DNA of 64,000 nucleotides from Acidobacteriota bacterium (lineage in GTDB: Bacteria > Acidobacteriota > Thermoanaerobaculia > Gp7-AA8): positions 78,976 to 142,975 of the forward strand of contig JAJPHC010000030.1 of NCBI GenBank assembly GCA_021325515.1, in the 5' to 3' direction. The translations under genes and the position numbers were made by a program. Below, piece after piece: positions 16,806-60,192 of the stretch. The notes beneath the pieces were generated by a model that was not told the DNA's origin, ran no database searches, and worked only from the letters and a program-made list of their open reading frames with translations. Position 1 is the first letter of the stretch. Every line of letters begins with the position of its first letter.

Positions 16806-16823
16806 TGAAAGGGCATGAGACAG

Positions 16824-16903: not shown

Positions 16904-16925
16904 CGCTGCCACGAGGAGCCAATTA

Positions 16926-19562: not shown

Positions 19563-19566
19563 TGCG

Positions 19567-20187: not shown

Positions 20188-20192
20188 ACGCC

Positions 20193-22976: not shown

Positions 22977-22983
22977 TCGGAGG

Positions 22984-38172: not shown

Positions 38173-38192
38173 ACTGGCATTTTCAATTTTGC

Positions 38193-38320
38193 TCCACGCT
38201 CGTGCTCGCTAGTGCGAAATTGAAAATTGAAAATTGAAAATTGAAAACGAAAGGCGGATCTTGCTTCGTTTTTCAATTTTCAATTTTCAATTTTCAATTT
38301 CGAAGCTCCACGCTCGTGCC
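38193..38320. repeat. MITE-like element. A near-perfect ~38-bp-arm hairpin built from tandem AATTGAA heptamers, flanked by 15-bp direct repeats GCTCCACGCTCGTGC
   Basis: Read directly: gaaattgaaaattgaaaattgaaaattgaaaacgaaag gcggatcttg cttcgtttttcaattttcaattttcaattttcaatttcg. The direct repeats lie at 38193-38207 and 38306-38320. The element overlaps the stop codon of the PAS-GGDEF-EAL gene. Confidence 0.6.
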
Positions 38321-43539: not shown

Positions 43540-44587
43540 GGATGCGTTCTACGCCTCTGTCGAACAGCGCGATGAACCCTCGCTGAAGGGAAAGCCGGTG
43601 ATCGTCGGATGGCCGGGCGAACGGAGCGTGGTCTGCGCTGCGTCCTACGAAGCGCGCAAATTCGGCGTGCACTCGGCGATGCCGGCGACGCGCGCGCGCC
43701 GTCTCTGTCCGTCGGCCGTCTTCATCCATCCGAACTTCGACAAATACCGCGCGGTATCGCGCGAGATCCGCGAGATTTTCGAGCGGCATACGCCGCTGGT
43801 CGAGCCGCTCTCGCTCGATGAGGCGTACCTTGATGTCACGCACGAGCTGACCGGGATTCCCACGGCGACCGAAACCGCGGAGTGCATCCGCCGCGAGATC
43901 CGCGAGCGGACGCAGCTCACGGCATCCGCCGGCGTCGCGCCGAACAAATTCCTCGCGAAAATCGCATCGGACTGGCGGAAGCCGGACGGCATGTTCGTCA
44001 TCCGGCCGCATCAGGTGGAGCGATTCCTGATGCCGCTGCCGGTGCGCAAGATTCCGGGCGTCGGCAAGGCGACGGAGAAGATCCTGCTCGAGATGAAGAT
44101 CGAGACCGTCGGCGATCTTCATCGCTTCACGCAGGAAGAGCTCGTGGCGCGATTCGGAAAGTGGGGCACGCGCCTGTGGGAACTGGCGCGCGGCATCGAC
44201 GAGTCGCCGGTCGAGCCTTCGCGTCCGCGCAAGTCGTGGTCGAGTGAGACGACGTTTCCGAAGGACATCCCGTTGAATGAAGTCGCGGAATGGATCGGGA
44301 GCGAGGCGCGCCATCTCTGGGAGACGCTGCAGTCGAAGGGAATGCACGGCCGCACGGTGACGGTGAAACTGCGCACCGGCGATTTCAAGACGGCGACGCG
44401 GCAGATCACGCCCGAGTCGCCGCCGGCATCAGGCGATGACCTCGCAGGAATCGGAGTCGAGCTCCTGTCGCGATTCACGTTCGCGGCGGAGGCGAAGTAC
44501 AGGCTCGCAGGCATCGGCGTTTCGAATTTCGTGGAGGAGGAGACCGAAGACTCCGAGCCCGAAGAAGTCCCGCTGTTTCATTCCTGA
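43514..44587 (+). CDS. dinB: DNA polymerase IV (Y-family translesion polymerase)
   Basis: VRKIIHIDMDAFYASVEQRD ... SLDEAYLDVT, with little-finger region motifs. The GTG start was chosen by alignment to the canonical MRKIIHVDMD N-terminus. The ATG at 43466 is an alternative. Confidence 0.85.
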   Translation: MRKIIHIDMDAFYASVEQRDEPSLKGKPVIVGWPGERSVVCAASYEARKFGVHSAMPATRARRLCPSAVFIHPNFDKYRAVSREIREIFERHTPLVEPLSLDEAYLDVTHELTGIPTATETAECIRREIRERTQLTASAGVAPNKFLAKIASDWRKPDGMFVIRPHQVERFLMPLPVRKIPGVGKATEKILLEMKIETVGDLHRFTQEELVARFGKWGTRLWELARGIDESPVEPSRPRKSWSSETTFPKDIPLNEVAEWIGSEARHLWETLQSKGMHGRTVTVKLRTGDFKTATRQITPESPPASGDDLAGIGVELLSRFTFAAEAKYRLAGIGVSNFVEEETEDSEPEEVPLFHS

Positions 44588-44670
44588 CGCGGGGTCTGCA
44601 TTCGCACGTTAGCCTCCGGCACGAATCGATCAGCAACGGCGGCGGCAGCGGTGCTATCTTTCCCGCCGCC

Positions 44671-45648
44671 ATGAACAGACAGCCCATTACCGTCGCGCAA
44701 TTCGGCATCGGGCCGATCGGCGCGGAGATCGCCCGCCTCCTTCTCACCAAGCCGTGGATCAAGCTCGTTGCCGCGGTCGACATCGATCCGAACAAGATCG
44801 GGCGCGATGTCGGCGAAGTCATCGGACTCGGCAAAGAGACAGGCATCAGAGTCACGCGTGATCTCGAAGTGAAGGCCGATGTCATCTGCCACTCCACCGG
44901 GTCGCGGCTGGCCGACGTCGCAGCGCAGCTCAGGATGCTGCTGGAGCGCGAGGCTCACGTCGTCTCCACCTGCGAAGAGCTCTCGTTCCCGCTCGACGCC
45001 GGCATCCGTGCCGAACTGCAGCACGTGGCGCGCGCGCACAACGTCACGCTCCTCGGCACGGGGGTGAATCCCGGCTTCGTGATGGACAAGCTGCCGCTCA
45101 CCGTCACCTCGGTCTGCCAGCGCGTCGACTCGATTCAGATCATTCGCATCCAGAACGCATCGACGCGTCGCGAGCCGCTGCAGCGAAAAGTTGGGGCCGG
45201 AATGACCGTCGCCGATTTCCGCAGCGCCGTCGATGCCGGGCGCATCAAGCACATGGGTCTCAAAGAGTCCCTCCTGATGGTCGGCAACGGCCTCGGCATC
45301 GATTTCGAGAGCGTGAGTGAAGAGCGGATCGAGCCGATCGTCGCCGGACGCGAGATCGTCACCGAGTACCTGCGCGTCGAGCCCGGCCAGGTGGCCGGCG
45401 TGCATCAGACGATCGAAGGCCGCGGCAGGATCAACGTGTCGCTCGATCTGCGCATGTACGTCGGCGCCGAAGACATCGCCGCAGACCGCGTGATCGTGAA
45501 AGGCATTCCCGATGTCGAGATGGAGATCAAAGGCGGCGTCCACGGCGATCGCGCGACAGCCGCGATGGTGGTGAACTCGATCCCGCGCGTCGTGAGCGCG
45601 CGGCCGGGATTGCTGACGATGGACGATATCCCGGTCAGCTTCCGATAA
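44671..45648 (+). CDS. NAD(P)-dependent oxidoreductase of the dihydrodipicolinate-reductase-like family (e.g. 2,4-diaminopentanoate dehydrogenase-type)
   Basis: N-terminal Rossmann motif VAQFGIGPIGAEI. The protein is ~325 aa. Confidence 0.45.
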   Translation: MNRQPITVAQFGIGPIGAEIARLLLTKPWIKLVAAVDIDPNKIGRDVGEVIGLGKETGIRVTRDLEVKADVICHSTGSRLADVAAQLRMLLEREAHVVSTCEELSFPLDAGIRAELQHVARAHNVTLLGTGVNPGFVMDKLPLTVTSVCQRVDSIQIIRIQNASTRREPLQRKVGAGMTVADFRSAVDAGRIKHMGLKESLLMVGNGLGIDFESVSEERIEPIVAGREIVTEYLRVEPGQVAGVHQTIEGRGRINVSLDLRMYVGAEDIAADRVIVKGIPDVEMEIKGGVHGDRATAAMVVNSIPRVVSARPGLLTMDDIPVSFR

Positions 45649-49206: not shown

Positions 49207-49947
49207 TCAGCTTGTCCTTCTCGCGACGAGCAGCAGGCCCGGCCCGAACGGCACCCACGAGAACAGCTCGTCGATCGTGAAGAGCGCGCGCACGAACGCC
49301 ACGAGCATGCGCGACTTCCCTGCCCTGCGCACCGTGCCCAGCATCGCATCGTCATCGATCCGATGCTTCGCGCGGCGGCGGTTCATCGGCCGCAGCAGCA
49401 CATAGTCATAGATCAGCGCGAGCGGGAAACCCCAGTAGCTCGCCTTGGCAACCCGCATCCCAGCCGATTGAAACAACGCGCGCAACTGTTCGCGCGAGTA
49501 GCGCCGGCGATGTTCGTAATAGACGTCCGACGTGCTCCAGAGACTCATCAGCGCGGGGACAGTCGTGACGCAGAGGCCATCCTCGCGCAGGACGCGGCGG
49601 ATCTCACCAGCGGCTGCACCATCGTGCTCGAGATGCTCGAGCGTCTCGCCCGAGGTCACGCCGTCGAAGGCGCCGTCGCGAAAGGGCATGCGCGTCATGT
49701 CGCCGACGACCACGGGAATCGAGCTCGTCCGTTTCACGTGCAGCGCGGCCTCGAACGAATAGTCGATGCCGGTGACGCGGAAGCCGCGGCCCTGCAATTG
49801 CGCCGCGAGAGTCCCGAGTCCGACCGCGCCGTCGAGCACGCGGGAGCCGTCCGGCAGGCGCTCGACCTCACGCACGATGCGGCCGAGCCGGTGCGCGTGA
49901 AGCGGGCCAAACATCTCGGGCTGCGTGCCCCATTCGTGAGTCGGCAT
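49207..49947 (-). CDS. Class I SAM-dependent methyltransferase
   Basis: Motif I VLDGAVGLGTL and post-motif DGVTSGETLEHLEHD. Confidence 0.7.
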   Translation of the reverse strand: MPTHEWGTQPEMFGPLHAHRLGRIVREVERLPDGSRVLDGAVGLGTLAAQLQGRGFRVTGIDYSFEAALHVKRTSSIPVVVGDMTRMPFRDGAFDGVTSGETLEHLEHDGAAAGEIRRVLREDGLCVTTVPALMSLWSTSDVYYEHRRRYSREQLRALFQSAGMRVAKASYWGFPLALIYDYVLLRPMNRRRAKHRIDDDAMLGTVRRAGKSRMLVAFVRALFTIDELFSWVPFGPGLLLVARRTS

Positions 49948-50016
49948 GATGCGCTACCGTATCGCTCGGGGCGCCGTCAGGAATTCCCGCGCGACCCTTC
50001 GTGTAGACTACGCGAA

Positions 50017-51549
50017 ATGTCTCAACGCGTTCTTCTGATTGGCCCGCCCTGGGGCGATGTCTACGGCAACTTCAAACATGTGGCGAAAGTCGGCGTCTTC
50101 TACCCGCCGCTCGGCCTCTGCTATCTGAAAAGTCCCCTCGTCGCAGCAGGTTACGACGTCAAAGTCGTCGATGCCGAGGCGTCGGGCTTCTCGATGTCCG
50201 ACATCCTCTCCGTCGTCGGCGACTACAACCCGGACATCATCGGCATTCAGGTCGTCTCGCCTCTGTGGGAAACGGCGAAGAGCATCGCCGCCGCAGTCCG
50301 GGAGCGCTTCCCGAAGATCATCAATGTCTGCGGTGGCCCGCACGTCACGCTGACACATGTCGATGCGATGAAAGAGGCGCCGCAGTTCGACTACGCCGTG
50401 CTCTCCGAATCCGAGGATGGATTTACGGAGCTCGTCGAAGCGATCACGAAGGGCGACTCGAACGATCTCGACAAAGTCGGCGGCATTCTCTATCGCCGCA
50501 ACGGCGAGATCCGCAGGACGCAGCCGCGCACACTGCGCCCCGATGTCGACAATCTCCACTTCCCCGACCGCCGCGATCTCGATCACAGCAAGTACCTCTT
50601 CAGCGTTCCCGGCGCAGGCATCCGCCGCTTCACCACGATCATCACGTCGCGCGGCTGCCCCTACAACTGCACGTTCTGCACGGAGCCGCTGATGTACGGC
50701 CGCACGACGCGCTTCCGCTCCGCGCGGAACGTCGTCGATGAAGTGCAGGACTTTCACGACCGGCACAACATCAATCACTTCATCTTCGTCGACGACACGC
50801 TCACCACGCGCAAAGAGCGGATCATGGAGATGTGCTCCCTTCTGCGCGAGCGCAAGCTCGACATCACGTGGGAGGGGTGGACGCACGTCAACACCGTCGA
50901 TCAGGATCTGCTGCACGAAATGCATGCGGCGGGACTGCGCCGCCTTTCGTTCGGCATCGAGTCCGGCAACGCGGAAGTGCTGCAGTCTCTCAAGAAGAAC
51001 TCGACGCTGCCGCGCATTCGCGAGGCCTATCGCTGGGCCAAGAACGCCGGCATCGAGACCCGCGGCTCCGTCATCCTCGGCCTCCCCGGCGACACGCGGA
51101 AGTCGGCGCAGGAGACGATCGACTTCGTCGTCGGCCTCAAGGAATGCGATCACGCTTACTTCAACATCGCGATGCCGTATCCCGGCACCGAGATCCGCCG
51201 CCAGGCGCTCGCAGGTGAAGCAGGCGTTCGCCTGCTGACCGAGGAGTATTCGGAGCTGCGGAGACAGGGGCAGAAGGTCGTGATGGAGGTCAATGACCTC
51301 GACACGAAGGCGCTGCTCCAACTGCAGCGCCAGGCCTATCTCCGTTTCTGGCTGACACCGCGGCGCATCTGGTACAACGTCGTCCGCTCCGGCTTCAAGG
51401 CAGCGCTGCAGAATGGATGGGCGTTCTTCCGCTCATTCGTGATGCCGACGCGCAACGGCCGCATCCGCTTCATCTCCGAGATCACCGATATTTACGAGGC
51501 GGTGTCGGGCCGTGCGTGGAGCGCGCAGGAGAAGGATAAGGCGGCGTAG
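50017..51549 (+). CDS. B12-binding-domain radical SAM protein (class B radical SAM)
   Basis: An N-terminal cobalamin-binding-like domain (VLLIGPP...GLCYLKSPLVAAGYDVKVVD). Radical SAM Cys triad CPYNCTFC. The protein is 510 aa. Confidence 0.8.
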   Translation: MSQRVLLIGPPWGDVYGNFKHVAKVGVFYPPLGLCYLKSPLVAAGYDVKVVDAEASGFSMSDILSVVGDYNPDIIGIQVVSPLWETAKSIAAAVRERFPKIINVCGGPHVTLTHVDAMKEAPQFDYAVLSESEDGFTELVEAITKGDSNDLDKVGGILYRRNGEIRRTQPRTLRPDVDNLHFPDRRDLDHSKYLFSVPGAGIRRFTTIITSRGCPYNCTFCTEPLMYGRTTRFRSARNVVDEVQDFHDRHNINHFIFVDDTLTTRKERIMEMCSLLRERKLDITWEGWTHVNTVDQDLLHEMHAAGLRRLSFGIESGNAEVLQSLKKNSTLPRIREAYRWAKNAGIETRGSVILGLPGDTRKSAQETIDFVVGLKECDHAYFNIAMPYPGTEIRRQALAGEAGVRLLTEEYSELRRQGQKVVMEVNDLDTKALLQLQRQAYLRFWLTPRRIWYNVVRSGFKAALQNGWAFFRSFVMPTRNGRIRFISEITDIYEAVSGRAWSAQEKDKAA

Positions 51550-51552
51550 TTT

Positions 51553-51620
51553 TTGTCGCGGTTGCGGGGGCTCGCGGGCTCTGGGTTGCGCGGGCTCGCG
51601 GGTGCGCGGCGTCAACTACC
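51553..51620. repeat. GC-rich intergenic repeats: two direct copies of GGTTGCG(C/G)GGGCTCGCGGG (reverse complement of the 34062-34099 repeat)
   Basis: Read directly. Confidence 0.5.
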
Positions 51621-51626
51621 AAGTAA

Positions 51627-51689
51627 GCCTAGCGCCTAGCGCCTAGCGCCTAGCGCCCAGCGCCCAGCGCCTAGCGCCCAGCGCCCAGA
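51627..51689. repeat. Perfect tandem heptanucleotide microsatellite (GCCYAGC)9
   Basis: gcctagc x4, gcccagc x2, gcctagc, gcccagc, gcccaga. In total 63 nt between convergent genes. Confidence 0.7.
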
Positions 51690-51690
51690 C

Positions 51691-52629
51691 TCACAGATCC
51701 ACCCCGCTCCCCGCGACCACCTGCGCGTGATTGAGTGCAGCGACGAGCAGCACACCTCCGATCACGTTTCCTGTCAGCGCGGGCAGCAGGAATCCCATCG
51801 CGAACTCGCTCCATGAGCTGCCGCCCACGAGCACGAGGAACGCGGTCTCGACGGCTCCTGCGATGACGTGGCTGAACTGCGCGAGTGCGATCACGTAAGT
51901 GATCACGCCGATCACCCAGACACGTGCGGCCTCTGCGAACGGCAGCAGCCAGACGGTCAATGCGATCAGCCAGCCCGCGAAGATGCCGCGCAGCAAGGTC
52001 GCCGCGAATCCCGAGGTCTGCGCGTGACGCGCCAGCTCCACCATGCTGCGGAAGGCTTCCTCATCGACGATTTGCGTCCGCGCCAGCACGAAGGCCATGA
52101 CGAGACTGCCGGCAAGATTCGCTGCGAAGACGACGCACCAGAGCCGCACGACGTTGATGAACGTCGCGCGATTGCGATGCTGCAGGAGTGGAAGAATCAC
52201 AGTCAGCGTGTTCTCGGTGAAGAGCTGCTGTCTGCCGAGAATCACGATCAGGAAGCCGACGGGATAACCGAGGGCGACGAGGAGCGGGCGCCATTGGGAA
52301 TCGGGAAGGTGGGCGTGGATCAGCGCGGGCGTGATGAACGAGAAGCTCATCGACAGACCGGCGGCGAGACCCGACCACGCCAGCGCCTGCGATGGGCGCT
52401 GCAGCTCGCTCTCCCCTTCGCTGAAGATCGCCCGGTACACCACTTCGCCGGTCGGTGCACTTCGTTCTTCCGCTTCGTCCAGCGCTGCCTGATCGGTCAC
52501 GCCGCGCTGGTTGTGCAAGAGGCGGCCCAGCCATCCCCAACTCGCCGCTGCACCCACCAATTTTGTATCCCAATTATGTATCATCGATCTCATGCGCAGA
52601 CTGCTGATCGTTCTCTCGTTCCTGGCCAT
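51691..52629 (-). CDS. Formate/nitrite transporter (FNT) family channel; possibly nitrite-related given context. Start uncertain
   Basis: FNT signatures LFTENT and GNVIGG with a 6-TM core. The longest ORF (to 52737) and the ATG at 52629 both overlap the divergent lipoprotein gene start at 52592. A GTG at 52500 gives an FocA-like N-terminus. Confidence 0.65.
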   Translation of the reverse strand: MARNERTISSLRMRSMIHNWDTKLVGAAASWGWLGRLLHNQRGVTDQAALDEAEERSAPTGEVVYRAIFSEGESELQRPSQALAWSGLAAGLSMSFSFITPALIHAHLPDSQWRPLLVALGYPVGFLIVILGRQQLFTENTLTVILPLLQHRNRATFINVVRLWCVVFAANLAGSLVMAFVLARTQIVDEEAFRSMVELARHAQTSGFAATLLRGIFAGWLIALTVWLLPFAEAARVWVIGVITYVIALAQFSHVIAGAVETAFLVLVGGSSWSEFAMGFLLPALTGNVIGGVLLVAALNHAQVVAGSGVDL

Positions 52630-53881
52630 CCTCGCCGCATGCAGGAAGAAGGAAGCTGCCGCGACCGCGACGGCATCCTCCGCCGCTGCGACCGCAACTT
52701 CGCCGGCATTCACGCAGAAGACGCTTCCCGTGCACAACGGTGAAAACCTCGTGGCGCTCGCATCCGGTGCGATGCCTGTGATTCGCGCCGGCGCGCCCGA
52801 GCAGGGAGGCGAGGCGTACTACATGTTCGACGAAGATCCGCTGACGGGATGGGCCAGCAACGACGGCAAGTACAACGAGCCGACCGTCGTCGAGCTCGCG
52901 GATCGAAGCATCATCCACTCCGTCGAGTTCGACGAAAAGAACATCGCGTACGACGGCCGCTTGCCGCAGGGAGTGCTGATCGAAGTCTCCGACACGAGCG
53001 CCACCGACGGCTTCAAGCCGATCGCGAACGTGACGATGACCGAGATGAAGGACGGGCAGACCTTTCCCGTCTCCGCCGAAGTGCCCGGCCGCTGGGTGCG
53101 AATCTCCGTCAAGAAGGCCGCATCCGATGCCGCGATCGCGCAGATCATGGAGTTCCGCGCGTTTGGCGAGCGGCTCACGCACAATCCCGTGCCCGACATC
53201 ACCGGCACGTACGAAACCAACGCAGGCAAATTCCATCTCAAGCAGCAGGGCACTTCGGTCACCGGCTGCTACGACAACGGCAGCGAGCCGCTGATCGGCG
53301 GGATGGAGGGACGCATCCTGAAGTTCCGCTACGCAGTCGGAGAAAACGGCAGCGGCCCTGCGCTTCTCGTCACGTCGAGCACCGGCGATGTTTTCGGCGG
53401 ATGGTGGCGAACGGACAGCAAGGTGGTCGAGCATCCCACGCTCGATCCGATCGAAGGAAAGCGGATCAGCACCGACCCGGGCAACACCGCATGCCCGCAA
53501 TGGGCAGCGCCGGAAGCGCAGATGGCGTCGGAGCTGAAGCAGAAGGGACGCGTGCAGCTCTACGGCATCAACTTCGACAGCGATTCGGATGTCATCCGCG
53601 ACGAATCGAAGCCGGCACTCGATCAGGTCGTGGCGATGTTGAAAGCGGACGCAGGCCTGAAGCTGACAATCGAAGGCCACACCGATTCGACCGCAACGCC
53701 GGAGCACAATCTGGAGCTGTCGACGAAGCGCGCAAACGCGGTGAAGCAATACCTCACCGCCGCAGGCATCGACAGCGCCCGTCTCGACGCAGCCGGCCGC
53801 GGCGCCACGCAACCGGTGGCCACGAATGACACGCCGCTGGGACGCGCTGCGAATCGGAGAGTGGAATTGGTGAAGCGCTGA
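52592..53881 (+). CDS. OmpA-family lipoprotein with an N-terminal discoidin-like domain
   Basis: Lipobox LAILAAC. C-terminal OmpA/MotB peptidoglycan-binding domain (LYGINFDSDSDVIRDESKPALDQVVAML...TIEGHTDSTATPEHNLELSTKRANAV). Confidence 0.65.
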   Translation: MRRLLIVLSFLAILAACRKKEAAATATASSAAATATSPAFTQKTLPVHNGENLVALASGAMPVIRAGAPEQGGEAYYMFDEDPLTGWASNDGKYNEPTVVELADRSIIHSVEFDEKNIAYDGRLPQGVLIEVSDTSATDGFKPIANVTMTEMKDGQTFPVSAEVPGRWVRISVKKAASDAAIAQIMEFRAFGERLTHNPVPDITGTYETNAGKFHLKQQGTSVTGCYDNGSEPLIGGMEGRILKFRYAVGENGSGPALLVTSSTGDVFGGWWRTDSKVVEHPTLDPIEGKRISTDPGNTACPQWAAPEAQMASELKQKGRVQLYGINFDSDSDVIRDESKPALDQVVAMLKADAGLKLTIEGHTDSTATPEHNLELSTKRANAVKQYLTAAGIDSARLDAAGRGATQPVATNDTPLGRAANRRVELVKR

Positions 53882-53885
53882 GGGT

Positions 53886-53947
53886 CTCGCGGGCCCGCGG
53901 TCGTTCACTGGATGACCGCGAGCCCGCGAGCCCGCGCATCCGCGTGA
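53886..53947. repeat. GC-rich 3' intergenic repeat (CGCGGGCCCGCG palindrome plus CGCGAGCCCGCGAGCCCGCGCATCC)
   Basis: Read directly. Related to the 33986-34099 and 51553-51620 repeats. Confidence 0.4.
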
Positions 53948-53956
53948 CCAACAACG

Positions 53957-54883
53957 TCACCGATACCGAATATCCAACACCTTCCTCACGACGTCCTTCG
54001 CGACGCCGGGAAGGTTCTGCACTCGCGTCAGCACGTCGTTGAACGCGTGCGACTCGCCGCCGTGCTTGAAGCATTCGCCGCAGCGCGGGAGTTGCGAGAA
54101 GTCGCGCGCCTCGAACGCTGCCTTCATCTGCAGCATGCGATCGCTCTTCACGATCTCTTCCAGCGTCTGCGTCTTCAGATCGCCCATGACCTGATCGCCA
54201 TGCGCGTCGTAGCAGCAGTGCGTGACGCGGCCATCGGCGAAGATCACGACCCAGGTGAAGAACGCCCCCTGCACGCAGCCGTAGAACTTTCCGTGGAGGT
54301 CCGTCTCCTCGTTGACATCGAGCGCCTCGCACGTCCGTTCGATCACGCGCGCATTCCTGTACTGCTTCAGATCGAAGAGGCGCCTGAAGTCATCCACCGA
54401 CTCATCGAGCGTGAGCCGCGACCGCATCTTCTGAATCTCGATGCGGAGCGGATGTCCTTTCGCCTGCCTGAGAAACTTCCGCGTCAGGTCAACGAGCTGT
54501 TCGAAGTCGCCGCCGGTGCGGATGTGCGGATACACATCGGGATTGATCGAGTCGACGCAGATGCGCAGCCGCTTGAGCGGCGACGCGAGGAGCTTCGCTC
54601 CCACCGCCTCCGTCAGCACCAGCCCGTTGGTCGACACACTCGCCTCGGGGAACAGCCGGATCGCATCGTCGATGCGGGAGTAGAGCAGCGGCTCGCCCAT
54701 CTCGTGCAGCCACTTCAGCTTCAGCCCGAGCCCGTGGATCTCGCGCTCCGCTTTCTCGACGAGCGGCCAGGCCATGTCTTCGTAGGGACGCCGCAGCACC
54801 GGCAGGGGGCACATGCCGCACCGCAGGTTGCACTTCGAGGTCAGCTCAAGGCCGACTTTGATCCGTCGCGGAATGACGCTCAT
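53957..54883 (-). CDS. Radical SAM / SPASM-domain protein
   Basis: CNLRCGMC (CX3CX2C) at residues 18-25. A C-terminal Cys-rich auxiliary cluster region (CCYDAHGDQ...CGEC). The ATG overlaps the stop of the upstream GT4 gene. Confidence 0.75.
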   Translation of the reverse strand: MSVIPRRIKVGLELTSKCNLRCGMCPLPVLRRPYEDMAWPLVEKAEREIHGLGLKLKWLHEMGEPLLYSRIDDAIRLFPEASVSTNGLVLTEAVGAKLLASPLKRLRICVDSINPDVYPHIRTGGDFEQLVDLTRKFLRQAKGHPLRIEIQKMRSRLTLDESVDDFRRLFDLKQYRNARVIERTCEALDVNEETDLHGKFYGCVQGAFFTWVVIFADGRVTHCCYDAHGDQVMGDLKTQTLEEIVKSDRMLQMKAAFEARDFSQLPRCGECFKHGGESHAFNDVLTRVQNLPGVAKDVVRKVLDIRYR

Positions 54884-55980
54884 CGGCTCACCAAGCGCGC
54901 AAACACGTTCGCGTATTCCTTCCACGAATACTTGCGCGCCGACTCGGCGGCGGCCTGCTCCATCGCCGCGCGATCGCGCGAGGTGCAGAACTCGTCCACC
55001 GCGCGCGCGAGTCCCGCTGGGTCTTCCGTGTCGATGAGCATGCCGTTCCTGCCGTCGATGATCTCCGGAAGCCCGCCGACGCGGCTGGCGATCACCGGCC
55101 GTGCGAAGTGGAACGCCGTCAGCGCGACGCCGCTCTGCGCCTCGGCGCGATAGGGCGCGAGGACGACGTCCGCGGCCGCGAAGTACGTCGCGATCTCGGA
55201 GTCGGGGATGTAGCGGTACTCGAGGCGCACGCGATCCGCGACGCCCATCTCCTTCGCCAGCGCGCTGTACTCCTCGTCCGCGCCCCACCACGCCTCCCCT
55301 GCCGCGAGCAGCAGCACGTCGGACTTCACCTCGCGCCAGGCGCGCAGCGCGATGTCGACGCCCTTGAATGGACGCATGTGGCCGAACGAGAGTGCAACGA
55401 ATGGTTGGGAAATGCCGAGCTTCTGCCTCGCATCTTCGCGCGAAGGCATCTCGCCTCCCAGCTCATGCACGGGGAGGAACGTCTTGATCACATGGCGCCC
55501 CCGCGAGCGCCGCCAGGCCTCATCCGCTTCGGTCCGCGCATGGGTCACCAGCACGTCGCCGCGCCGCAGCACCGGATTCGTCATCGCACGCTTCCACCAC
55601 GCCGGCTCCTTGTCGCCGACGTTGTGGCACTGCAGGATCACGCGCGTGCGGCGCCGCAGCATCGCCATCATCACGCGATACGGCAGCTTCCACACCCAGA
55701 TGTAGAGGACGAAGATGACGTGGTCGTACTGGCGCAGCCGCCATCCCGCGCGCACCCAGGTGAAGGGATTCAGCAGGTCGACGATGAAGTCGGCCTTCGC
55801 ACGCGGCAGCGTCGCGTCCATGTCGCTCGCCCCGCCGGGATAGAGGCTGCGCGGATACTGCCTCGAGAACGAGATCACATCCGCCGGCTGCAGCTCCTCG
55901 GCTAACCGAGTGGTGCAGTACGCGACCCCCGAGCGGTAGGGAAAGACGGGACCGACGATGGCGAGGTTGTTGTCGTTCAT
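54880..55980 (-). CDS. Family 4 glycosyltransferase (GT-B, GT4)
   Basis: C-terminal GT4 block GGLPEIIDGRNGMLID plus an EX7E-like region. The protein is 366 aa. Confidence 0.75.
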   Translation of the reverse strand: MNDNNLAIVGPVFPYRSGVAYCTTRLAEELQPADVISFSRQYPRSLYPGGASDMDATLPRAKADFIVDLLNPFTWVRAGWRLRQYDHVIFVLYIWVWKLPYRVMMAMLRRRTRVILQCHNVGDKEPAWWKRAMTNPVLRRGDVLVTHARTEADEAWRRSRGRHVIKTFLPVHELGGEMPSREDARQKLGISQPFVALSFGHMRPFKGVDIALRAWREVKSDVLLLAAGEAWWGADEEYSALAKEMGVADRVRLEYRYIPDSEIATYFAAADVVLAPYRAEAQSGVALTAFHFARPVIASRVGGLPEIIDGRNGMLIDTEDPAGLARAVDEFCTSRDRAAMEQAAAESARKYSWKEYANVFARLVSR

Positions 55981-55998
55981 CCTGAGCGCAGCGATGGA

Positions 55999-57147
55999 TC
56001 AGCCAAGGCGCAGAGAAGACGACGCCGATTCGCGCGGCGCCTTGATTGACTCTTCGCTGCGCTCAGAGTGACCGGACAGGAAATTCACCACGGTCGATGC
56101 GAAGTACGCTCCCCACGTCCGCACGTCGAAGACGAGCGACGACGACATGAAGCAGGAGTGCGTGCAGTGGCACTCTTTCGCCCGGATCGCGGCGCGCTGG
56201 GCGTCGGCCGCCTCGGAATACCAGAGCTTGTTGAAGTCGAAGCCATGCTCGCGCACGTTGCCGACCGCATCGCGAAGCTCGCACATCCGCACCTCGCCGC
56301 GCGCATCGAGCACGCCCGACACACGGCCGGCGTGACAGGGGCGCACCTGCGTCTCCTGCTCCAGCACCGCCAGCTCCATCCGCCGCGAGTAGATCTTCAC
56401 GAACTTCAGGAAGCTGTCGTAATGCGGATAGGAGTCCCAGTACGCCTCGAGCTTCGGCAGCAGCTCGCGATAGCGCTGCGTGGTGATCGGCTGGATGTTC
56501 TTGTCCGGCTGGTCGCCGCGCAGCATCTCGAACGAATGAAAGGAGACGGCCGGGAAATCGCGCTTCACTCCGGCACACAGCTCATCGAGATCCTCCGCGT
56601 TGTACGTGCACAAGCAGGTGTGCACGTTGACGGTGAGGTTCTCGTACTTGTCGCGCAGCGCGATCAGCGCGGCGTAGGTCTTCTTCGCTTTCTCGTAGTT
56701 ACCCGGCACGCCGCGGATCCAGTCGTGCTTCTCGCCGATGTGATCGATCGAGAGATTGACGACGATCTGCGTGTCCGGGCAGCGCTTCAGCGTCTCCTCG
56801 GTGTTGCGCGCGATGAGATCGCTCGCGATCGCGCCGGTCGGGATCGTGATCTGCTTCACATGATTCTTCTTCGACAGCGTCTCGCAGACCTCCGGCAGAT
56901 CGCGGCGCAGGAACGGCTCGCCGCCACTCATCACGATGAAGAGGAGATCGCCGAGGGAGGCGAAGGTCTTCTGAAGCTCCTCGAGGGAGAGCTCGTGCTC
57001 CTTGTTTTTCCGCAACTGCTCCCAGTTGAAACAGGTGCGGCAGAACGAGTTGCAGTCGTACGTCAGCCCGATGATGAGGTAGACGGGTTTCATCCCCCGC
57101 TTGTCGACGAGGAAACGCAGATACTGCAGTTTGTCGGTGAACTTCAT
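55999..57147 (-). CDS. Radical SAM / SPASM-domain protein
   Basis: CNSFCRTC Cys triad. C-terminal SPASM-like cysteines (CHAGRVSG...RMCE...CHCTHSC). The protein is 382 aa. Confidence 0.75.
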   Translation of the reverse strand: MKFTDKLQYLRFLVDKRGMKPVYLIIGLTYDCNSFCRTCFNWEQLRKNKEHELSLEELQKTFASLGDLLFIVMSGGEPFLRRDLPEVCETLSKKNHVKQITIPTGAIASDLIARNTEETLKRCPDTQIVVNLSIDHIGEKHDWIRGVPGNYEKAKKTYAALIALRDKYENLTVNVHTCLCTYNAEDLDELCAGVKRDFPAVSFHSFEMLRGDQPDKNIQPITTQRYRELLPKLEAYWDSYPHYDSFLKFVKIYSRRMELAVLEQETQVRPCHAGRVSGVLDARGEVRMCELRDAVGNVREHGFDFNKLWYSEAADAQRAAIRAKECHCTHSCFMSSSLVFDVRTWGAYFASTVVNFLSGHSERSEESIKAPRESASSSLRLG

Positions 57148-57190
57148 GTGCGCTAACGAAACGGCCGGGACGGATCATACAATCCCGACG

Positions 57191-57958
57191 ATGTCCGTAC
57201 GTGCCGCTCAGGCGCTTTATCACCGGTTGATTCCCGCCTCGATCCGCAATCCGATCGGCGCATTCCGGCGCCGCCTCGGCGATCGTGTGCGCCGGGCGAG
57301 CGTGCCGTATCCGCTTCCCCCTGCGCGGCTTCTGCGCAATGTGCAGCTCACGCCCTACGTCAAGGAGTACCTCTCGGTGGGCCGCAAGTCGGCCGAATCG
57401 ATCATCGCCGCGCTCGCTTCGCGGAGCCCGGCTCGCGTGCTCGATTTCGGATGCGGCTCGGCACGCACGCTGCGGCATCTGCGCAACACGGGATGGGAGC
57501 TATACGGCTGCGACATCGACGCGGACGCGATCGCGTGGTCGCGCAGCGCACTTCCCTTCGCGCGCTTCGATGTCAACGGCGCGGAACCGCCACTCCCCTA
57601 CGCCGGCGCGTTGTTCGACGCCGTCTACACGATCTCCGTCTTCACGCATTTCCCGCCGGGACAGCAGGAGCGCTGGGCTGCCGAGATGGCGCGCGTGCTG
57701 CGCACCGGCGGAACGCTCGTCGTCTCGAGCGTTGGCTTCACGGCACTCCAGGCATTCGCGGGCAGCGCGGAGAATCTCGCGCAACTGGAGGCGGAGGGAA
57801 CCTTGTTCATCCGCGGCACCGAGGAGTTCAACGCGAGCGGCATGTACCACGCGCGGGCCGGACTCGAGCGGCTCTTCGGCCCTCACTTCACGATGGATGT
57901 CCACGAGGAGCGCGGGCTGGATGGCTTTCAGGATCTGACGATCTTCACGCGCCGGTAG
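57191..57958 (+). CDS. Class I SAM-dependent methyltransferase
   Basis: Motif I VLDFGCGSARTL. The start was set at the internal ATG. The 3' end overlaps the convergent GT2 gene by 14 nt. Confidence 0.65.
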   Translation: MSVRAAQALYHRLIPASIRNPIGAFRRRLGDRVRRASVPYPLPPARLLRNVQLTPYVKEYLSVGRKSAESIIAALASRSPARVLDFGCGSARTLRHLRNTGWELYGCDIDADAIAWSRSALPFARFDVNGAEPPLPYAGALFDAVYTISVFTHFPPGQQERWAAEMARVLRTGGTLVVSSVGFTALQAFAGSAENLAQLEAEGTLFIRGTEEFNASGMYHARAGLERLFGPHFTMDVHEERGLDGFQDLTIFTRR

Positions 57959-58844
57959 TGCTCTCTCCTCGAATCAGTCCCCAGACGATTCCGCAGAAAT
58001 ACGTCGCGTGATGTGCCGCGAAGGCGGCCGGGATCACCGGCCAGTAGCGCAGCGGCAGGCGCGTATGGCGTGCGCCGAGAATGAGCGTGGCGATGACGTA
58101 GAGCGGCAGGGACACGGGAAGGGCGAGCAATCCGATCAGACCCAGCAGCAGGAACGCGCGCACTTTCGGCGGTCTGATTCCGCGCTCGCGCATCATCCGT
58201 CCGGTCTTCACGCGATAACGCCAGCGCTGCGCGAGATACGCGCCGGGAAACGCGCGGCGGCGATGGAAGACTCGCACCGTGTCGCTGTAGACGGCGTGCG
58301 GCAGCAGTTGCGTGAGCAATGCGGTGTCCTCGCCGATGTAGCCGATCGATTCGTCGAAGCCGGTGAATGCCGAGCGGCGCACGAAGAGATTCACCAGCGC
58401 GATATCGCTGGGATGCTGCAGAGGGAACGTTCCGCGCCGGTTCTCATGCGCCGCGACGCCGCTGCCGATGAGCGGCGTGGCGAGGAGCGTGTCGGAGATC
58501 AATTCGGCAATCGACGAGTCCGGCGGCGCGGGATCGGGACCGCCCAGCGCGAGCACGTCGGGATGCTCGTCGAGATACCGCACGGCATTCGCCAGCCAGT
58601 GCGGATCGGCGATCGCATCGTCGTCGATGAACGCCAGCAGCTCCCCCTCGGCGACGGAAGCTGCTCGATTTCTTCGAGTTGCGGGATTACGATTCGCCTC
58701 GACGACGTTTCGTACGCCGGTTCGTGCACACTCGGGAAGAGGCGCCGCCGACACGACGATCAACTCGTACGGAAATGCGGCTTCCTGATTGAGTACCGAC
58801 GCGATGGCTCGTTCCGCGTCGCCGCCGACCCGCTCCACTGGCAT
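57945..58844 (-). CDS. Family 2 glycosyltransferase (GT-A); N-terminus abuts or overlaps the heptamer-repeat element
   Basis: VSVIMPV(E)R...LNQ...ELIVVSAA...FIDDDA (DxD). The only in-frame ATG is the M in VSVIMPV. Upstream in-frame sequence is the repeat translated as FNFQFSIS. Confidence 0.65.
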   Translation of the reverse strand: MPVERVGGDAERAIASVLNQEAAFPYELIVVSAAPLPECARTGVRNVVEANRNPATRRNRAASVAEGELLAFIDDDAIADPHWLANAVRYLDEHPDVLALGGPDPAPPDSSIAELISDTLLATPLIGSGVAAHENRRGTFPLQHPSDIALVNLFVRRSAFTGFDESIGYIGEDTALLTQLLPHAVYSDTVRVFHRRRAFPGAYLAQRWRYRVKTGRMMRERGIRPPKVRAFLLLGLIGLLALPVSLPLYVIATLILGARHTRLPLRYWPVIPAAFAAHHATYFCGIVWGLIRGESTTGA

Positions 58845-58864
58845 GATGACGGAGACTCGAAGAG

Positions 58865-58941
58865 TCGAAATTGAAAATTGAAAATTGAAAATTGAAAATT
58901 CGCTCCGTCCCCCATTTTCAATTTTCAATTTCCAATTTTCA
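58865..58941. repeat. Heptamer (GAAAATT)n palindromic hairpin, second copy of the 38216-38302 element family, filling the divergent GT2/GT2 intergenic region
   Basis: Read directly: tcgaaattgaaaattgaaaattgaaaat tcgctccgtccccc attttcaattttcaatttccaattttcaatttcga. Confidence 0.6.
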
Positions 58942-58968
58942 ATTTCGATTCGCGAAGAACTGAGAAAA

Positions 58969-60192
58969 ATGAAGCTCATTGTTCAAATCCCTGCTTTCAA
59001 TGAAGAGGGCACGATCGCGGCCACGCTCCGCGACATCCCGAAGAAGATCGACGGCATCACCTCGATCGAAACGCTGGTCATCGATGATGGCAGCAGCGAC
59101 AAGACGGTGGACGCAGCGCGCAAGGCCGGCGCGAATCACGTCGTGCAGCTGAAGACGCATCGCGGACTCTCCTCCGCCTTCGTCGCCGGCATCGACGCCG
59201 CGCTTCGCCTCGGCGCCGACGTCATCGTCAACACCGACGCCGACAATCAGTACGCCGCCGCCGACATCGCCAAGCTCGTCGCGCCGATCGTCAAGGGCAC
59301 GGCGGAAGTCGTCGTCGGCGATCGCGAGGTGGCGAATTCGCCGCACATGTCCGGATTCAAGCGCATGCTGCAGCGCCTTGGAAGCTGGACCGTGAGCCTC
59401 GCCTCCGGCATCGACGTCGCCGACGTCACCAGCGGCTTCCGCGCCTTCTCGCGCGAAGCGGCGATGCGGATCAACGTCTTCAACCCATTCACCTACACGC
59501 TCGAGACCATCATTCAATCCGGCAACCACAACCTCGGCGTGCAATCGGTCGCGGTGCGGACGAACGCGCCGACGCGTCCCTCGCGTCTCTATCGCGGCAT
59601 CGGGACGTACCTGCGCAAGTCGGTCGCGACGATCTTCCGCATCTCCACCGTCTATCGCCCCCTCAAGACGTTTGCCTGGCTCGGCTTCGCACTCGTCTTC
59701 GCCGGCGTTCTCCTCGGAATGCGCTTCGTCTGGGCATTCTTCTACGGAAATCGCGCCGGCCATGTGCAGTCGCTCATCCTCTGCGCCGTCTTTCTCGTCA
59801 CCGGATTCCAGACGTGGCTCATCGCGCTCGTCGCGGACCTCATCGCCGTGAATCGACGGATCAGCGAAGACGTGCTGCTGCGGTTGAAGCGGATGGAGAT
59901 GGCGCAGGAGCAGCGGAGGCCGCGGCGCGATCGCGATCGCGATCGAGACCGCGACAGGGAGCGCGAGCAGCGACCGCGTCCCCAACCAGCCGTTGCACCT
60001 CCGCCCCCGAAGGAGCCGGAGACGCAGTGGGTCTGGCTGCACGAGCCGGAGCAGGCGGAAGAGATTCCGGCCGTCGAAGAGAGTCCGGCGCCGGGCGGAG
60101 CACCCAGCGGAGGACGCAGGCGCCGCAGACGGCGCGGTGGTCCGCGCAATCATCCGGAGCTGCCGGGCAATCGCGGCAAGCACCTCGAGTAG
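58969..60192 (+). CDS. GT2 polyprenyl-phosphate sugar synthase-like glycosyltransferase (DPM1/GtrB-like) with C-terminal TM helices and an Arg/Asp-rich disordered tail
   Basis: MKLIVQIPAFNEEGTIAATL...LVIDDGSSDKT...VNTDADNQY (DPM1-like blocks). The tail is RRPRRDRDRDRDRDREREQRPRP...GGRRRRRRRGGPR. Confidence 0.75.
   Translation: MKLIVQIPAFNEEGTIAATLRDIPKKIDGITSIETLVIDDGSSDKTVDAARKAGANHVVQLKTHRGLSSAFVAGIDAALRLGADVIVNTDADNQYAAADIAKLVAPIVKGTAEVVVGDREVANSPHMSGFKRMLQRLGSWTVSLASGIDVADVTSGFRAFSREAAMRINVFNPFTYTLETIIQSGNHNLGVQSVAVRTNAPTRPSRLYRGIGTYLRKSVATIFRISTVYRPLKTFAWLGFALVFAGVLLGMRFVWAFFYGNRAGHVQSLILCAVFLVTGFQTWLIALVADLIAVNRRISEDVLLRLKRMEMAQEQRRPRRDRDRDRDRDREREQRPRPQPAVAPPPPKEPETQWVWLHEPEQAEEIPAVEESPAPGGAPSGGRRRRRRRGGPRNHPELPGNRGKHLE

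What the first reader, a model, noticed from the sequence alone, without database searches (positions are those of the whole stretch)
49207..60192. Radical-SAM-rich glycosyltransferase / methyltransferase cluster with no obvious peptide substrate
Within 11 kb the window holds a B12-binding radical SAM enzyme, two radical SAM/SPASM proteins (309 and 382 aa), a GT4, a GT2, a DPM1-like polyprenyl-phosphate sugar synthase and two class I methyltransferases. An FNT channel and an OmpA lipoprotein are interleaved. I found no short precursor-peptide ORF, so a RiPP cluster is less likely. Three radical SAM enzymes plus lipid-linked sugar chemistry suggests radical-mediated tailoring of a glycolipid, lipid or cell-envelope glycan. 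Examples would be C-methylation by the B12-rSAM, or radical sugar dehydrogenation/epimerisation by SPASM/twitch enzymes of the BtrN or anSME type. B12-rSAM methylases and rSAM lipid-tailoring enzymes are also known for hopanoid and tetraether lipids. That link is speculative here.
Basis: inference. Interest (0 to 1): 0.75.

Follow-up and report, generated by a model that had tools for sequence, protein, structure and literature searches.

The report
Conserved glycosyltransferase–radical SAM glycan cassette

Summary
They are not one cluster.

**Conserved core (53957-60192).** Five genes are syntenic across roughly 60-75 Thermoanaerobaculia species. They are a DPM1/GtrB-like GT2, divergent from a 2-TM GT2, followed by a 382-aa SPASM-type rSAM, a GT4 and a 308-aa SPASM rSAM.

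**Later additions.** The B12-rSAM and its divergent methyltransferase form a separate two-gene module. It lies next to the core only here and in the closest relative. The FNT channel, the OmpA protein and the second methyltransferase were found beside the core in none of 87 related loci.

**Strongest new result.** In other lineages the 2-TM GT2 and the 382-aa-type rSAM are fused into one protein. The same parts list recurs there in flippase- and STT3-containing glycan clusters: GT2, two rSAMs, a class I methyltransferase, a B12-rSAM and a GT4.

**What it is not.** No rSAM reaches any curated family cut-off (HpnJ/HpnR, BchE, Tes, MftC). There is no precursor peptide and no room for a peptide-recognition domain.

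**Best reading.** This is a lipid-linked glycan pathway with radical-SAM sugar tailoring. The chemistry is unknown. Interest is moderate: an uncharacterised, widespread enzyme pairing.

The parts
58969..60192 (+). GT2_DPM: DPM1/GtrB/AglJ-like polyprenyl-phosphate sugar synthase type GT2 (407 aa). It has a GT-A domain with DDG and DAD motifs, two C-terminal TM helices (231-260, 266-294) and a charged low-complexity tail. Core gene.
   Evidence: Pfam Glycos_transf_2, E 7e-20. Best NCBIfam match is AglJ at 121 bits (cut-off 325), followed by PpgS and dolichyl-P hexose transferase. It lies divergent to GT2s in 61/61 relatives that have both genes.
58862..58951 (.). AT-rich hairpin repeat, (GAAAATT)x5 / 14-nt loop / (AATTTTC)x5, inserted between the two divergent GT2 start codons. 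It is a dispersed REP/MITE-like element and is not specific to the cluster.
   Evidence: Arms are 38 nt and 95% complementary. A second site lies at 38106-38302; 14 matches were found against 0 expected. It also occurs at various places in L061, L071, L073 and L074. In most relatives the two start codons are only a few bp apart.
57945..58844 (-). GT2s: MftF/EpsD/AglG-like GT2 (299 aa from ATG 58844; possible TTG start at 58928 inside the repeat). It has a GT-A domain with a DDD motif and a C-terminal hydrophobic membrane anchor (226-259 in the hydropathy scan); the homologous fused proteins carry two TM helices at this position. It is the partner of rSAM360. Core gene.
   Evidence: Pfam Glycos_transf_2. 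Best NCBIfam match is MftF at 46 bits, cut-off 280. TM segment. It is homologous to the N-terminal GT2 domain of the GT2::rSAM fusion proteins. Present in 65/87 loci.
57191..57958 (+). MT_B: class I SAM methyltransferase (255 aa) on the opposite strand, sitting in the variable slot between GT2s and rSAM360. It is specific to this genome. Whether it belongs to the pathway is uncertain.
   Evidence: Pfam Methyltransf_11, E 1e-15. Found in 0/87 related loci. The slot is 6-4344 bp long in relatives and holds unrelated small genes: a lipoprotein, an OsmC-like protein and a protein of about 100 aa.
55999..57147 (-). rSAM360: radical SAM enzyme (382 aa; homologs about 360 aa). It has a CNSFCRTC cluster motif and invariant C-terminal cysteines C271, C289 and C326xC328xxxC332 (partial SPASM). 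Core gene and signature of the cassette.
54880..55980 (-). GT4 retaining-type glycosyltransferase (366 aa). It starts 18 bp after the rSAM360 stop. Core gene.
   Evidence: Pfam Glyco_trans_1_4 and Glycos_transf_1. Best NCBIfam match is MshA at 95 bits, cut-off 462. Present in 74/84 close relatives.
53957..54883 (-). SPASM309: small radical SAM/SPASM protein (308 aa). It has a CNLRCGMC motif and conserved C185, C203, C223-C224 and C268xxC271. Its start overlaps the GT4 stop (ATGA). It is the most conserved gene of the cassette. Core gene.
52592..53881 (+). OmpA-domain lipoprotein with an F5/8 type C domain. It is not part of the cassette; it is an insertion specific to this genome.
   Evidence: Pfam. 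Lipobox LAAC. Absent from all 87 related loci.
51691..52500 (-). FNT (formate/nitrite) channel; the start codon is uncertain. It is not part of the cassette. It more plausibly relates to the two nitrate reductase operons elsewhere in the window.
   Evidence: Pfam Form_Nir_trans, E 3e-51. Absent from all 87 loci. narGHI-like operons were found.
50017..51549 (+). B12-binding radical SAM enzyme (510 aa) of the BchE/HpnJ-like broad group. Together with MT_A it forms an independent, mobile two-gene module.
   Evidence: Pfam. NCBIfam gives BchE 207 bits against 481, HpnJ 200 against 578 and HpnR 94 against 650. Closest PDB match is AprD4, E 5e-26, over the rSAM core only. The pair is conserved in a different neighbourhood in L089. 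Homologs lie in polysaccharide clusters in L090. A fusion to a methyltransferase exists, P0171.
49207..49947 (-). MT_A: class I SAM methyltransferase (246 aa), the divergent partner of the B12-rSAM.
   Evidence: Pfam Methyltransf_11, E 9e-18. A 76% identical ortholog sits in the same divergent arrangement in L089. Methyltransferases about 31% identical lie directly downstream of rSAM360-like genes in L134 and L116.

Best explanation
Window 53957-60192 is a conserved five-gene cassette of class Thermoanaerobaculia (Acidobacteriota). It most likely assembles a short membrane-anchored glycan, most likely carried on polyprenyl phosphate, whose sugars are tailored by two dedicated radical SAM enzymes.

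Proposed order of events (steps 1-5 are inferred from family and context, not shown):
1. GT2_DPM has a GtrB/DPM1/AglJ-type GT-A domain and two TM helices. It loads a sugar from an NDP-sugar onto polyprenyl phosphate at the cytoplasmic face.
2. GT2s is a membrane-anchored MftF/AglG/EpsD-like GT2. It adds a sugar to the lipid-bound acceptor.
3. Its obligate partner rSAM360 is fused to this GT2 in other lineages. It uses a 5'-deoxyadenosyl radical and an auxiliary Fe-S site to abstract a sugar hydrogen. The outcome could be epimerisation, dehydrogenation, decarboxylation or ring rearrangement.
4. GT4 adds a further sugar. Its translationally coupled partner SPASM309 performs a second radical tailoring step.
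5. Export and transfer to the final acceptor use unlinked genes. No flippase or GT-C enzyme is in the window.

What is shown: domain content, conserved order and coupling, the gene fusions, and recurrence of the parts list in glycan clusters.

The MT_A/B12-rSAM pair is a separate mobile tailoring module. It landed next to the cassette in this lineage and may or may not decorate the same glycan. FNT, OmpA, rhodanese and DUF3011 are unrelated insertions. MT_B is a genome-specific insertion whose role is uncertain.
For: **Synteny.** A species-level genome scan found 276 relatives. In the 80 best plus 7 further loci, the order GT2_DPM (-) / GT2s / rSAM360 / GT4 / SPASM309 recurs. Gene counts out of 87 loci are GT4 75, GT2s 65, GT2_DPM 63 and SPASM309 60; most absences are on short contigs. 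The GT2 pair is divergent in 61/61 loci and GT4-SPASM309 is adjacent in 57/59.

**Coupling.** There is an 18-bp gap between rSAM360 and GT4 and an ATGA overlap between GT4 and SPASM309.

**Selection.** The two rSAMs are as conserved as YchF: medians 85% and 83% against 83%.

**Rosetta stone.** An rSAM-only profile search found seven GT2(+TM)::rSAM/SPASM fusion proteins among the top 150 representatives. The GT2 domain of five of them is detectably homologous to GT2s, and five have TM-like segments between the GT2 and rSAM domains. One fusion cluster is seen on more than 10 independent contigs.

**Context in distant lineages.**
- L005: a DPM-like GT2 (51% identical), LPG_synthase_TM, GT2s and the rSAM lie inside an ArnABC/UbiA envelope-glycan cluster.
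- L093: the fusion lies next to STT3, a WecA-like PF00953 transferase, PMT_2, a deacetylase, LPG_synthase_TM and three B12-rSAMs.
- L097: the fusion lies with two GT4s, a methyltransferase, B12-rSAMs, a Wzx-type flippase and LPG_synthase_TM.
- L134: an overlapping operon encodes rSAM, methyltransferase, GT2 and SPASM rSAM.

**GT2_DPM architecture** is.

**Not a peptide system.** No conserved small ORF was found. Only about 17-30 residues precede the CX3CX2C motif, leaving no room for a peptide-recognition domain.
Against: - No substrate or product is known, and nothing was tested biochemically.
- No flippase, GT-C transferase, initiating phosphoglycosyltransferase or NDP-sugar synthesis gene lies in the Thermoanaerobaculia locus. 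The lipid carrier and the final acceptor are therefore guesses.
- The fold searches cannot separate sugar-modifying from peptide-modifying SPASM enzymes: BlsE and SkfB score alike.
- In some relatives the GT4-SPASM309 pair lies 9-10 kb from the rest (L001, L002). One relative, L003, lacks SPASM309 nearby.
- The metagenome loci were ranked with a query that included the GT2 domain. The 27/59 adjacency count is therefore biased upward.
Confidence: 0.6

Rival explanations
1. The acceptor is a membrane lipid itself (diacylglycerol, ether lipid or hopanoid) and not a polyprenyl-phosphate carrier. In this reading the cassette makes a glycolipid whose sugar head group is remodelled by the rSAMs, for example by ring contraction to a cyclitol. 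This would parallel HpnI/HpnJ (bacteriohopanetetrol cyclitol ether) or the archaeal calditol synthase Cds.
For: GT2s and the GT2 domains of the fusions are membrane-anchored. They give weak hits to Glyco_transf_21, the ceramide glucosyltransferase-like lipid GT family. There is precedent for rSAM remodelling of lipid-bound hexoses (review PMC13459092). The compact L134 operon has no DPM-like GT2. The locus has no flippase or GT-C enzyme.
Against: A GtrB/DPM1-type GT2 is part of the conserved core. In L093, L097 and L005 the module sits with flippases and, variously, STT3, PMT_2 or Arn genes, which are typical of carrier-linked glycans. HpnJ and HpnH scores are far below cut-off. No squalene-hopene cyclase or hpn gene was seen among the window genes scanned.
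Confidence: 0.2
2. The whole 49.2-60.2 kb stretch is one functional cluster. In this reading the B12-rSAM, both methyltransferases and the five core genes all act on one product.
For: B12-rSAMs and class I methyltransferases recur next to rSAM360-family genes in distant lineages: L093, L097, L134, L118, L117, L169 and L172. The B12-rSAM family sits in polysaccharide clusters in L090. The closest relative, L008, also has the pair near the cassette.
Against: The MT_A/B12-rSAM pair keeps its arrangement in an unrelated neighbourhood of signalling genes, a T2SS ATPase and OmpW, with no GT or rSAM360 nearby. In 43 of 44 relatives, DAPDH follows SPASM309 within 6-3444 bp with no B12-rSAM between them. 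MT_B, FNT and OmpA were found in 0/87 loci. The intervening genes differ between the window and L008.
Confidence: 0.2
3. A mycofactocin-like or RiPP-type pathway. The SPASM rSAMs would mature a peptide or peptide-derived cofactor, which the MftF-like GT2 then glycosylates and an MftM-like methyltransferase methylates.
Against: All scores are far below the curated cut-offs (280, 265 and 200). No MftA, MftB, MftD or MftE was seen in the window or the loci. No conserved small ORF was found. Neither rSAM has an RRE/PqqD domain or room for one. The fusion partner is a membrane GT2, and the contexts are envelope-glycan clusters.
Confidence: 0.07
4. Hopanoid or tetraether (brGDGT-type) lipid-core tailoring by the rSAMs.
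Against: Scores are HpnJ 200 against 578, HpnR 94 against 650, Tes 35 against 450 and rSAM_ladder_B12 130 against 360. The conserved partners are glycosyltransferases, not lipid-synthesis genes. The structural matches are generic for the SPASM group.
Confidence: 0.05

Closest known systems
Polyprenyl-phosphate-based glycan pathways (archaeal Agl pathway AglJ/AglG/AglP; bacterial GtrB, ArnC and PpgS systems)
   Same: GT2_DPM has the GT-A plus two-TM architecture. Its best curated match is AglJ, followed by PpgS and dolichyl-P hexose transferase. GT2s hits AglG. Further GTs and optional methyltransferases follow. Distant relatives of the module sit beside STT3, PMT_2, Wzx and Arn genes.
   Different: All scores are below the equivalog cut-offs. 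As far as I could find, none of the known pathways contains radical SAM enzymes (literature searches found none). No oligosaccharyltransferase, GT-C enzyme or flippase is linked in Thermoanaerobaculia.
Sugar-modifying twitch/SPASM radical SAM enzymes of antibiotic pathways (BlsE, BtrN, DesII, SpeY, AbmM)
   Different: Sequence identity is 11-18%, and phmmer finds no match to these enzymes in the PDB. Peptide maturases (SkfB, PqqE, SuiB, anSME) score equally well. The known enzymes act on soluble nucleotide or aminoglycoside sugars in secondary metabolism. This system is membrane-tethered and conserved like a core function.
HpnI/HpnJ (hopanoid cyclitol ether) and calditol synthase Cds
   Same: The logic is the same: a glycosyltransferase puts a hexose on a membrane lipid, and a radical SAM enzyme then remodels that sugar (PMC13459092). 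The window's B12-rSAM belongs to the broad BchE/HpnJ-like group.
   Different: HpnJ scores 200 bits against a cut-off of 578. rSAM360 and SPASM309 are not B12-type enzymes. No hopanoid genes were seen. The Cds sequence could not be compared here.
Mycofactocin system (MftC rSAM, MftF GT2, MftM methyltransferase)
   Same: The closest curated model for the GT2s family is MftF. rSAM360 aligns end to end with MftC at low score. Class I methyltransferases co-occur.
   Different: No MftA, MftB, MftD or MftE is present, and all scores are far below cut-off. The contexts are envelope-glycan clusters.

Membership tests
HpnJ / BchE-type B12-rSAM (hopanoid cyclitol ether; Mg-protoporphyrin cyclase) | Score at or above the curated equivalog cut-off of TIGR03471 (577.6) or TIGR02026 (481.35) | tested here: not met
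   The B12-rSAM scores 200.3 and 206.7 bits.
HpnP/HpnR hopanoid C-methylases | Score at or above the cut-off of TIGR04367 (650), plus linkage to hopanoid (shc/hpn) genes | tested here: not met
   HpnR scores 94 bits. No hpn or shc gene was found among the window genes scanned.
Tetraether synthase Tes | Score at or above the NF045702 cut-off (450) | tested here: not met
GrsA/B, Mss, Cds (other lipid rSAMs) | Sequence similarity to the characterised proteins | not testable with these tools
   No matches to models for these proteins appeared among the listed NCBIfam hits.
anSME / BtrN (SPASM / twitch dehydrogenases) | Specific sequence relationship, plus the full SPASM 7-Cys motif (anSME) or a single twitch cluster (BtrN) | tested here: inconclusive
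RiPP radical SAM maturase system | An adjacent precursor peptide gene and an RRE/PqqD-like recognition domain | tested here: not met
   No conserved small ORF lies in or beside the core. The CX3CX2C motif starts at residue 32 in rSAM360 and residue 18 in SPASM309, leaving no room for an RRE. No PqqD hit was found.
Mycofactocin system | MftC, MftF and MftM at equivalog scores, plus MftA, MftB, MftD and MftE | tested here: not met
   Scores against cut-offs are MftC 53.7 / 265, MftF 46.2 / 280 and MftM 34.1 / 200. No other mft genes were found.
GtrB/DPM1-type polyprenyl-phosphate glycosyltransferase | N-terminal GT-A domain with a DXD motif, followed by two C-terminal TM helices | tested here: met
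   Glycos_transf_2 covers residues 34-193 of the ORF. The DDG and DAD motifs are present. TM segments lie at 231-260 and 266-294.
GtrB/DPM1-type polyprenyl-phosphate glycosyltransferase | Equivalog-level match to a characterised member (AglJ, PpgS, ArnC) | tested here: not met
   Scores against cut-offs are AglJ 121 / 325, PpgS 66.5 / 370 and ArnC 36.8 / 529.
Cobalamin-dependent rSAM methylase (class B) | N-terminal B12-binding domain plus rSAM core; methyl transfer activity | tested here: inconclusive
   Both domains are present. The nearest solved relative over the core is the non-methylating dehydratase AprD4 (E 5e-26), followed by TokK. Activity cannot be tested.

The most novel reading that the evidence does not exclude
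The membrane GT2 plus SPASM-type rSAM pair is separate here and fused in other lineages. It may be a previously unrecognised bifunctional enzyme type that transfers a sugar to a lipid-bound acceptor and immediately rewrites it by radical chemistry. Possible outcomes are ring contraction to a carbocyclic, cyclitol-like unit, decarboxylation of a uronic acid to a pentose, or a C-C or C-O cross-link. This would give Thermoanaerobaculia, and many uncultured lineages, an envelope glycoconjugate with a sugar not made by any known pathway. The second pair, GT4 with SPASM309, would do the same at the next position.
Probability: 0.2. Interest if true: 0.8.

Novelty: new variant of a known kind. Interest (0 to 1): 0.55.

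Why it matters
Radical SAM tailoring of sugars is known mainly from antibiotic pathways and from two lipid head-group cases, HpnJ and Cds. Here a radical SAM enzyme is wedded to a membrane glycosyltransferase and is literally fused to it in other lineages. The profile search found 1652 cluster representatives at E<=1e-30, although not all need be orthologs. In a whole class of abundant soil Acidobacteriota the enzyme is as conserved as a housekeeping GTPase. This points to an unstudied step in cell-envelope glycan chemistry. It also gives a compact, testable five-gene cassette, or a single fusion protein, for finding the reaction. In addition, the work shows that the eye-catching count of three rSAMs in 11 kb is partly a product of lineage-specific insertions.

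Tried and rejected
- **Exact look-up of the 382-aa rSAM.** Nothing was found, because this genome's version has a unique 22-aa C-terminal tail.
- **AFDB fold search.** The library was unavailable.
- **Literature searches.** Five searches (Thermoanaerobaculia + radical SAM; rSAM + GT + Acidobacteria/brGDGT; rSAM + polyprenyl + twitch; rSAM + SPASM + lipid-linked; rSAM + dolichol phosphate + N-glycosylation) found no description of this cassette.
- **The AT-rich hairpin as a cluster-specific operator.** I first considered this for the hairpin between the divergent GT2 genes. I rejected it because the same element occurs at 38.1-38.3 kb and at unrelated places in relatives.
- **The 525-aa TPR protein as the missing GT-C transferase.** This protein lies next to GT2_DPM in some relatives. 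I rejected the idea because it has no TM segments, occurs in only 7 loci and is absent from the window.
- **A riboswitch.** I looked for a cobalamin or other riboswitch. Rfam finds only a tRNA-Arg in the window.
- **The L097 263-aa gene as a DPM-like GT2.** It is not one.
- **Names or taxa for the fusion proteins.** All are unnamed metagenomic sequences.

Full report
**1. What is in the sequence**

The window has 64% G+C, so I chose genes by codon-position G+C bias and then ran Pfam and NCBIfam on them.

| Gene | Coordinates | Strand | Notes |
|---|---|---|---|
| MT_A | 49207-49947 | - | class I methyltransferase |
| B12-rSAM | 50017-51549 | + | 510 aa; exact copy on record, P0121 |
| FNT channel | 51691 to ~52500 | - | |
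| OmpA / F5_F8_type_C lipoprotein | 52592-53881 | + | |
| SPASM309 | 53957-54883 | - | 308-aa rSAM/SPASM protein |
| GT4 | 54880-55980 | - | |
| rSAM360 | 55999-57147 | - | 382-aa rSAM |
| MT_B | 57191-57958 | + | class I methyltransferase |
| GT2s | 57945-58844 | - | GT2 with a C-terminal membrane anchor |
| GT2_DPM | 58969-60192 | + | DPM1/AglJ-like GT2, two C-terminal TM helices |

Homolog names place the window in Acidobacteriota, class Thermoanaerobaculia. No protein reaches the curated cut-off of any NCBIfam family.

**2. The 11 kb is not one unit**

I scanned one genome per species with an rSAM360 alignment. This found 276 relatives, and the 80 best are all Thermoanaerobaculia or Acidobacteriota MAGs. 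I then searched every window protein against these and seven further loci with tblastn.

- **Conserved order.** The order GT2_DPM (divergent) / GT2s / rSAM360 / GT4 / SPASM309 recurs. The GT2 pair is divergent in 61/61 loci. GT4 and SPASM309 are adjacent in 57/59.
- **Flanking genes.** One side carries an alpha/beta hydrolase, YchF and glucokinase. The other carries a DAPDH-like gene and Pol IV (window 43436-45648).
- **An insertion on the SPASM309 side.** In 43 of 44 relatives that have both genes, DAPDH follows SPASM309 within 6-3444 bp. In the window the gap is 8.3 kb.
- **Contents of the insertion.** This gap holds DUF3011, a hypothetical gene, rhodanese, MT_A, the B12-rSAM, FNT and OmpA.
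- **How rare the inserted genes are.** Only the closest relative, L008, has the B12-rSAM/MT_A block there, and it has different genes in between. FNT, OmpA and MT_B occur in none of the 87 loci.
- **MT_B's location.** MT_B sits in a slot between GT2s and rSAM360. In relatives this slot is 6-4344 bp long and holds unrelated small genes.

**3. The B12-rSAM/MT_A pair is its own module**

- A 78%/76% identical pair keeps the same divergent arrangement in L089. There it lies among signalling genes, a T2SS ATPase and OmpW, with no GT or rSAM360 nearby.
- More distant homologs (42-59% identity) occur in Omnitrophota, Phycisphaerae and other groups.
- In L090, five paralogs alternate with class I methyltransferases, a GT2, an asparagine synthase, rml genes and a Wzx-type flippase.
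- One homolog, P0171, is fused to a methyltransferase.
- This family is therefore glycan-associated in general, but it moves independently of the five-gene core in Thermoanaerobaculia.
- Its scores are BchE 207 against 481, HpnJ 200 against 578 and HpnR 94 against 650. The nearest solved relative over the core is the dehydratase AprD4.

**4. The core is a functional unit**

- **Coupling.** The rSAM360 stop lies 18 bp before the GT4 start. The GT4 stop overlaps the SPASM309 start as ATGA.
- **Conservation.** The two rSAMs are the most conserved genes of the region, with median identities of 85% and 83%. YchF is at 83%, while the three GTs are at 64-69%.
- **Family size.** A profile search with rSAM360 alone, against 1.8 billion cluster representatives, found 1652 proteins at E<=1e-30.
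- **Gene fusions.** Seven of the top 150 are proteins of 618-719 aa in which an N-terminal GT2 precedes the rSAM/SPASM domain. Five of the seven show TM-like segments between the two domains.
- **Homology of the fused GT2.** The GT2 domain of five of these fusions is detectably homologous to GT2s, which carries its own membrane anchor at the same position.
- **The fusions look real.** One fusion cluster is seen on more than ten contigs.
- This Rosetta-stone fusion shows that GT2s and rSAM360 work together at the membrane.

**5. Context elsewhere points to lipid-linked glycans**

- **L005** (rSAM 47% identical). A DPM-like GT2 (51% identical), LPG_synthase_TM, GT2s and the rSAM lie inside a cluster with ArnA/B/C-like genes and a UbiA prenyltransferase.
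- **L093** (fusion). It lies with STT3, a WecA-like PF00953 transferase, PMT_2, GT9, a polysaccharide deacetylase, a short GT2 with LPG_synthase_TM, and three B12-rSAMs.
- **L097** (fusion). It lies with two GT4s, a methyltransferase, two B12-rSAMs, a Wzx-type flippase and LPG_synthase_TM.
- **L134.** An overlapping four-gene operon encodes an rSAM360-like protein, a class I methyltransferase (31% identical to MT_A), a GT2 and a SPASM rSAM (30% identical to SPASM309). A B12-rSAM lies 5.5 kb away.
- **Metagenome loci outside Thermoanaerobaculia.** A GT2s-type GT2 is fused or directly upstream in 27 of 59 loci with enough upstream DNA, and elsewhere in the locus in 13 more. The ranking favoured GT2-containing hits, so this fraction is biased upward.

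This keeps open the possibility that the B12-rSAM/MT_A module decorates the same product.

**6. What the rSAMs are not**

- **Sequence search of the PDB.** phmmer finds only QueE at E 2.5e-4 for rSAM360 and nothing for SPASM309.
- **Models.** The AF2 models have pLDDT 82 and 69.
- **No discrimination.** Sugar-acting and peptide-acting members score alike.
- **Cysteines.** rSAM360 has invariant C271, C289, C326, C328 and C332. SPASM309 has C185, C203, C223, C224, C268 and C271. These are consistent with auxiliary Fe-S clusters in non-canonical spacing.
- **Not a peptide system.** There is no precursor peptide and no room for an RRE domain. Tes, MftC, NirJ and AhbD models all score below 61 bits.

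**7. Most likely mechanism (inferred)**

GT2_DPM charges polyprenyl phosphate with a sugar. GT2s adds a sugar, and rSAM360 tailors it by H-atom abstraction. GT4 adds another sugar, and SPASM309 tailors it. Export and transfer use unlinked genes.

The alternative with most residual weight is that the acceptor is a membrane lipid and the rSAMs remodel a glycolipid head group, as HpnJ and Cds are proposed to do (PMC13459092).

**8. Verdict**

The real feature is a conserved five-gene GT/rSAM cassette at 53957-60192. It belongs to an uncharacterised and widespread GT2-rSAM partnership. The B12-rSAM/MT_A pair is a neighbouring mobile module. FNT, OmpA and MT_B are insertions. The hopanoid/tetraether link is not supported.

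Noticed in passing
window 58862-58951 and 38106-38302; also L061 8607-8674, L073 17118-17189, L071, L074: A dispersed AT-rich palindromic repeat occurs in a 64% G+C genome. It is built of tandem heptamers, (GAAAATT)n / loop / (AATTTTC)n, with 38-nt arms that are 95% complementary. It looks like a REP- or MITE-like element. One copy was inserted exactly between the two divergent GT2 start codons. In most relatives those codons are only a few bp apart, so the insertion may have displaced the GT2s start.
   Followed up: partly
window 90-4981 and 13131-19562, plus 19447-24849: There are two separate narGHI-like respiratory nitrate reductase operons (molybdopterin subunit, Fe-S beta subunit, gamma subunit). 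They are followed by multihaem cytochrome and Alternative Complex III-like genes (ActD/NrfD). The FNT channel at 51.7 kb may serve nitrite or formate transport for this physiology and not the glycan genes.
   Followed up: no
window 57147-57945 and the equivalent slot in L001-L087: The short interval between GT2s and rSAM360 is an insertion hot spot. In different species it holds a lipoprotein of about 129 aa, an OsmC-like protein, a conserved protein of about 100 aa, a Ser/Thr kinase-TPR gene (L043) or nothing. Toxin-antitoxin pairs sit just downstream of rSAM360 in L001 and L002.
   Followed up: partly
L090 10001-20297 (Omnitrophica MAG JAQURX010000001.1): Five paralogous B12-binding rSAM genes alternate with class I methyltransferases and a GT2 in one polysaccharide cluster. 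This is an unusually dense array of cobalamin rSAM enzymes. Similar multi-copy arrays were seen in L097, L117, L169 and L172.
   Followed up: no
window 59930-60192 (C-terminus of GT2_DPM): After its two TM helices the DPM1-like GT2 carries a tail of about 110 aa. The tail is highly charged and of low complexity, with RD/RE repeats, a proline-rich stretch and an R7 run. Relatives have proteins of similar length (411-413 aa). Its function is unknown.
   Followed up: no
window 38294-42091 and 26504-27277: A large 7TM-PAS(x4)-GGDEF-EAL signalling protein and an FHA-GGDEF protein point to c-di-GMP signalling genes in the same window. No link to the cassette was examined.
   Followed up: no
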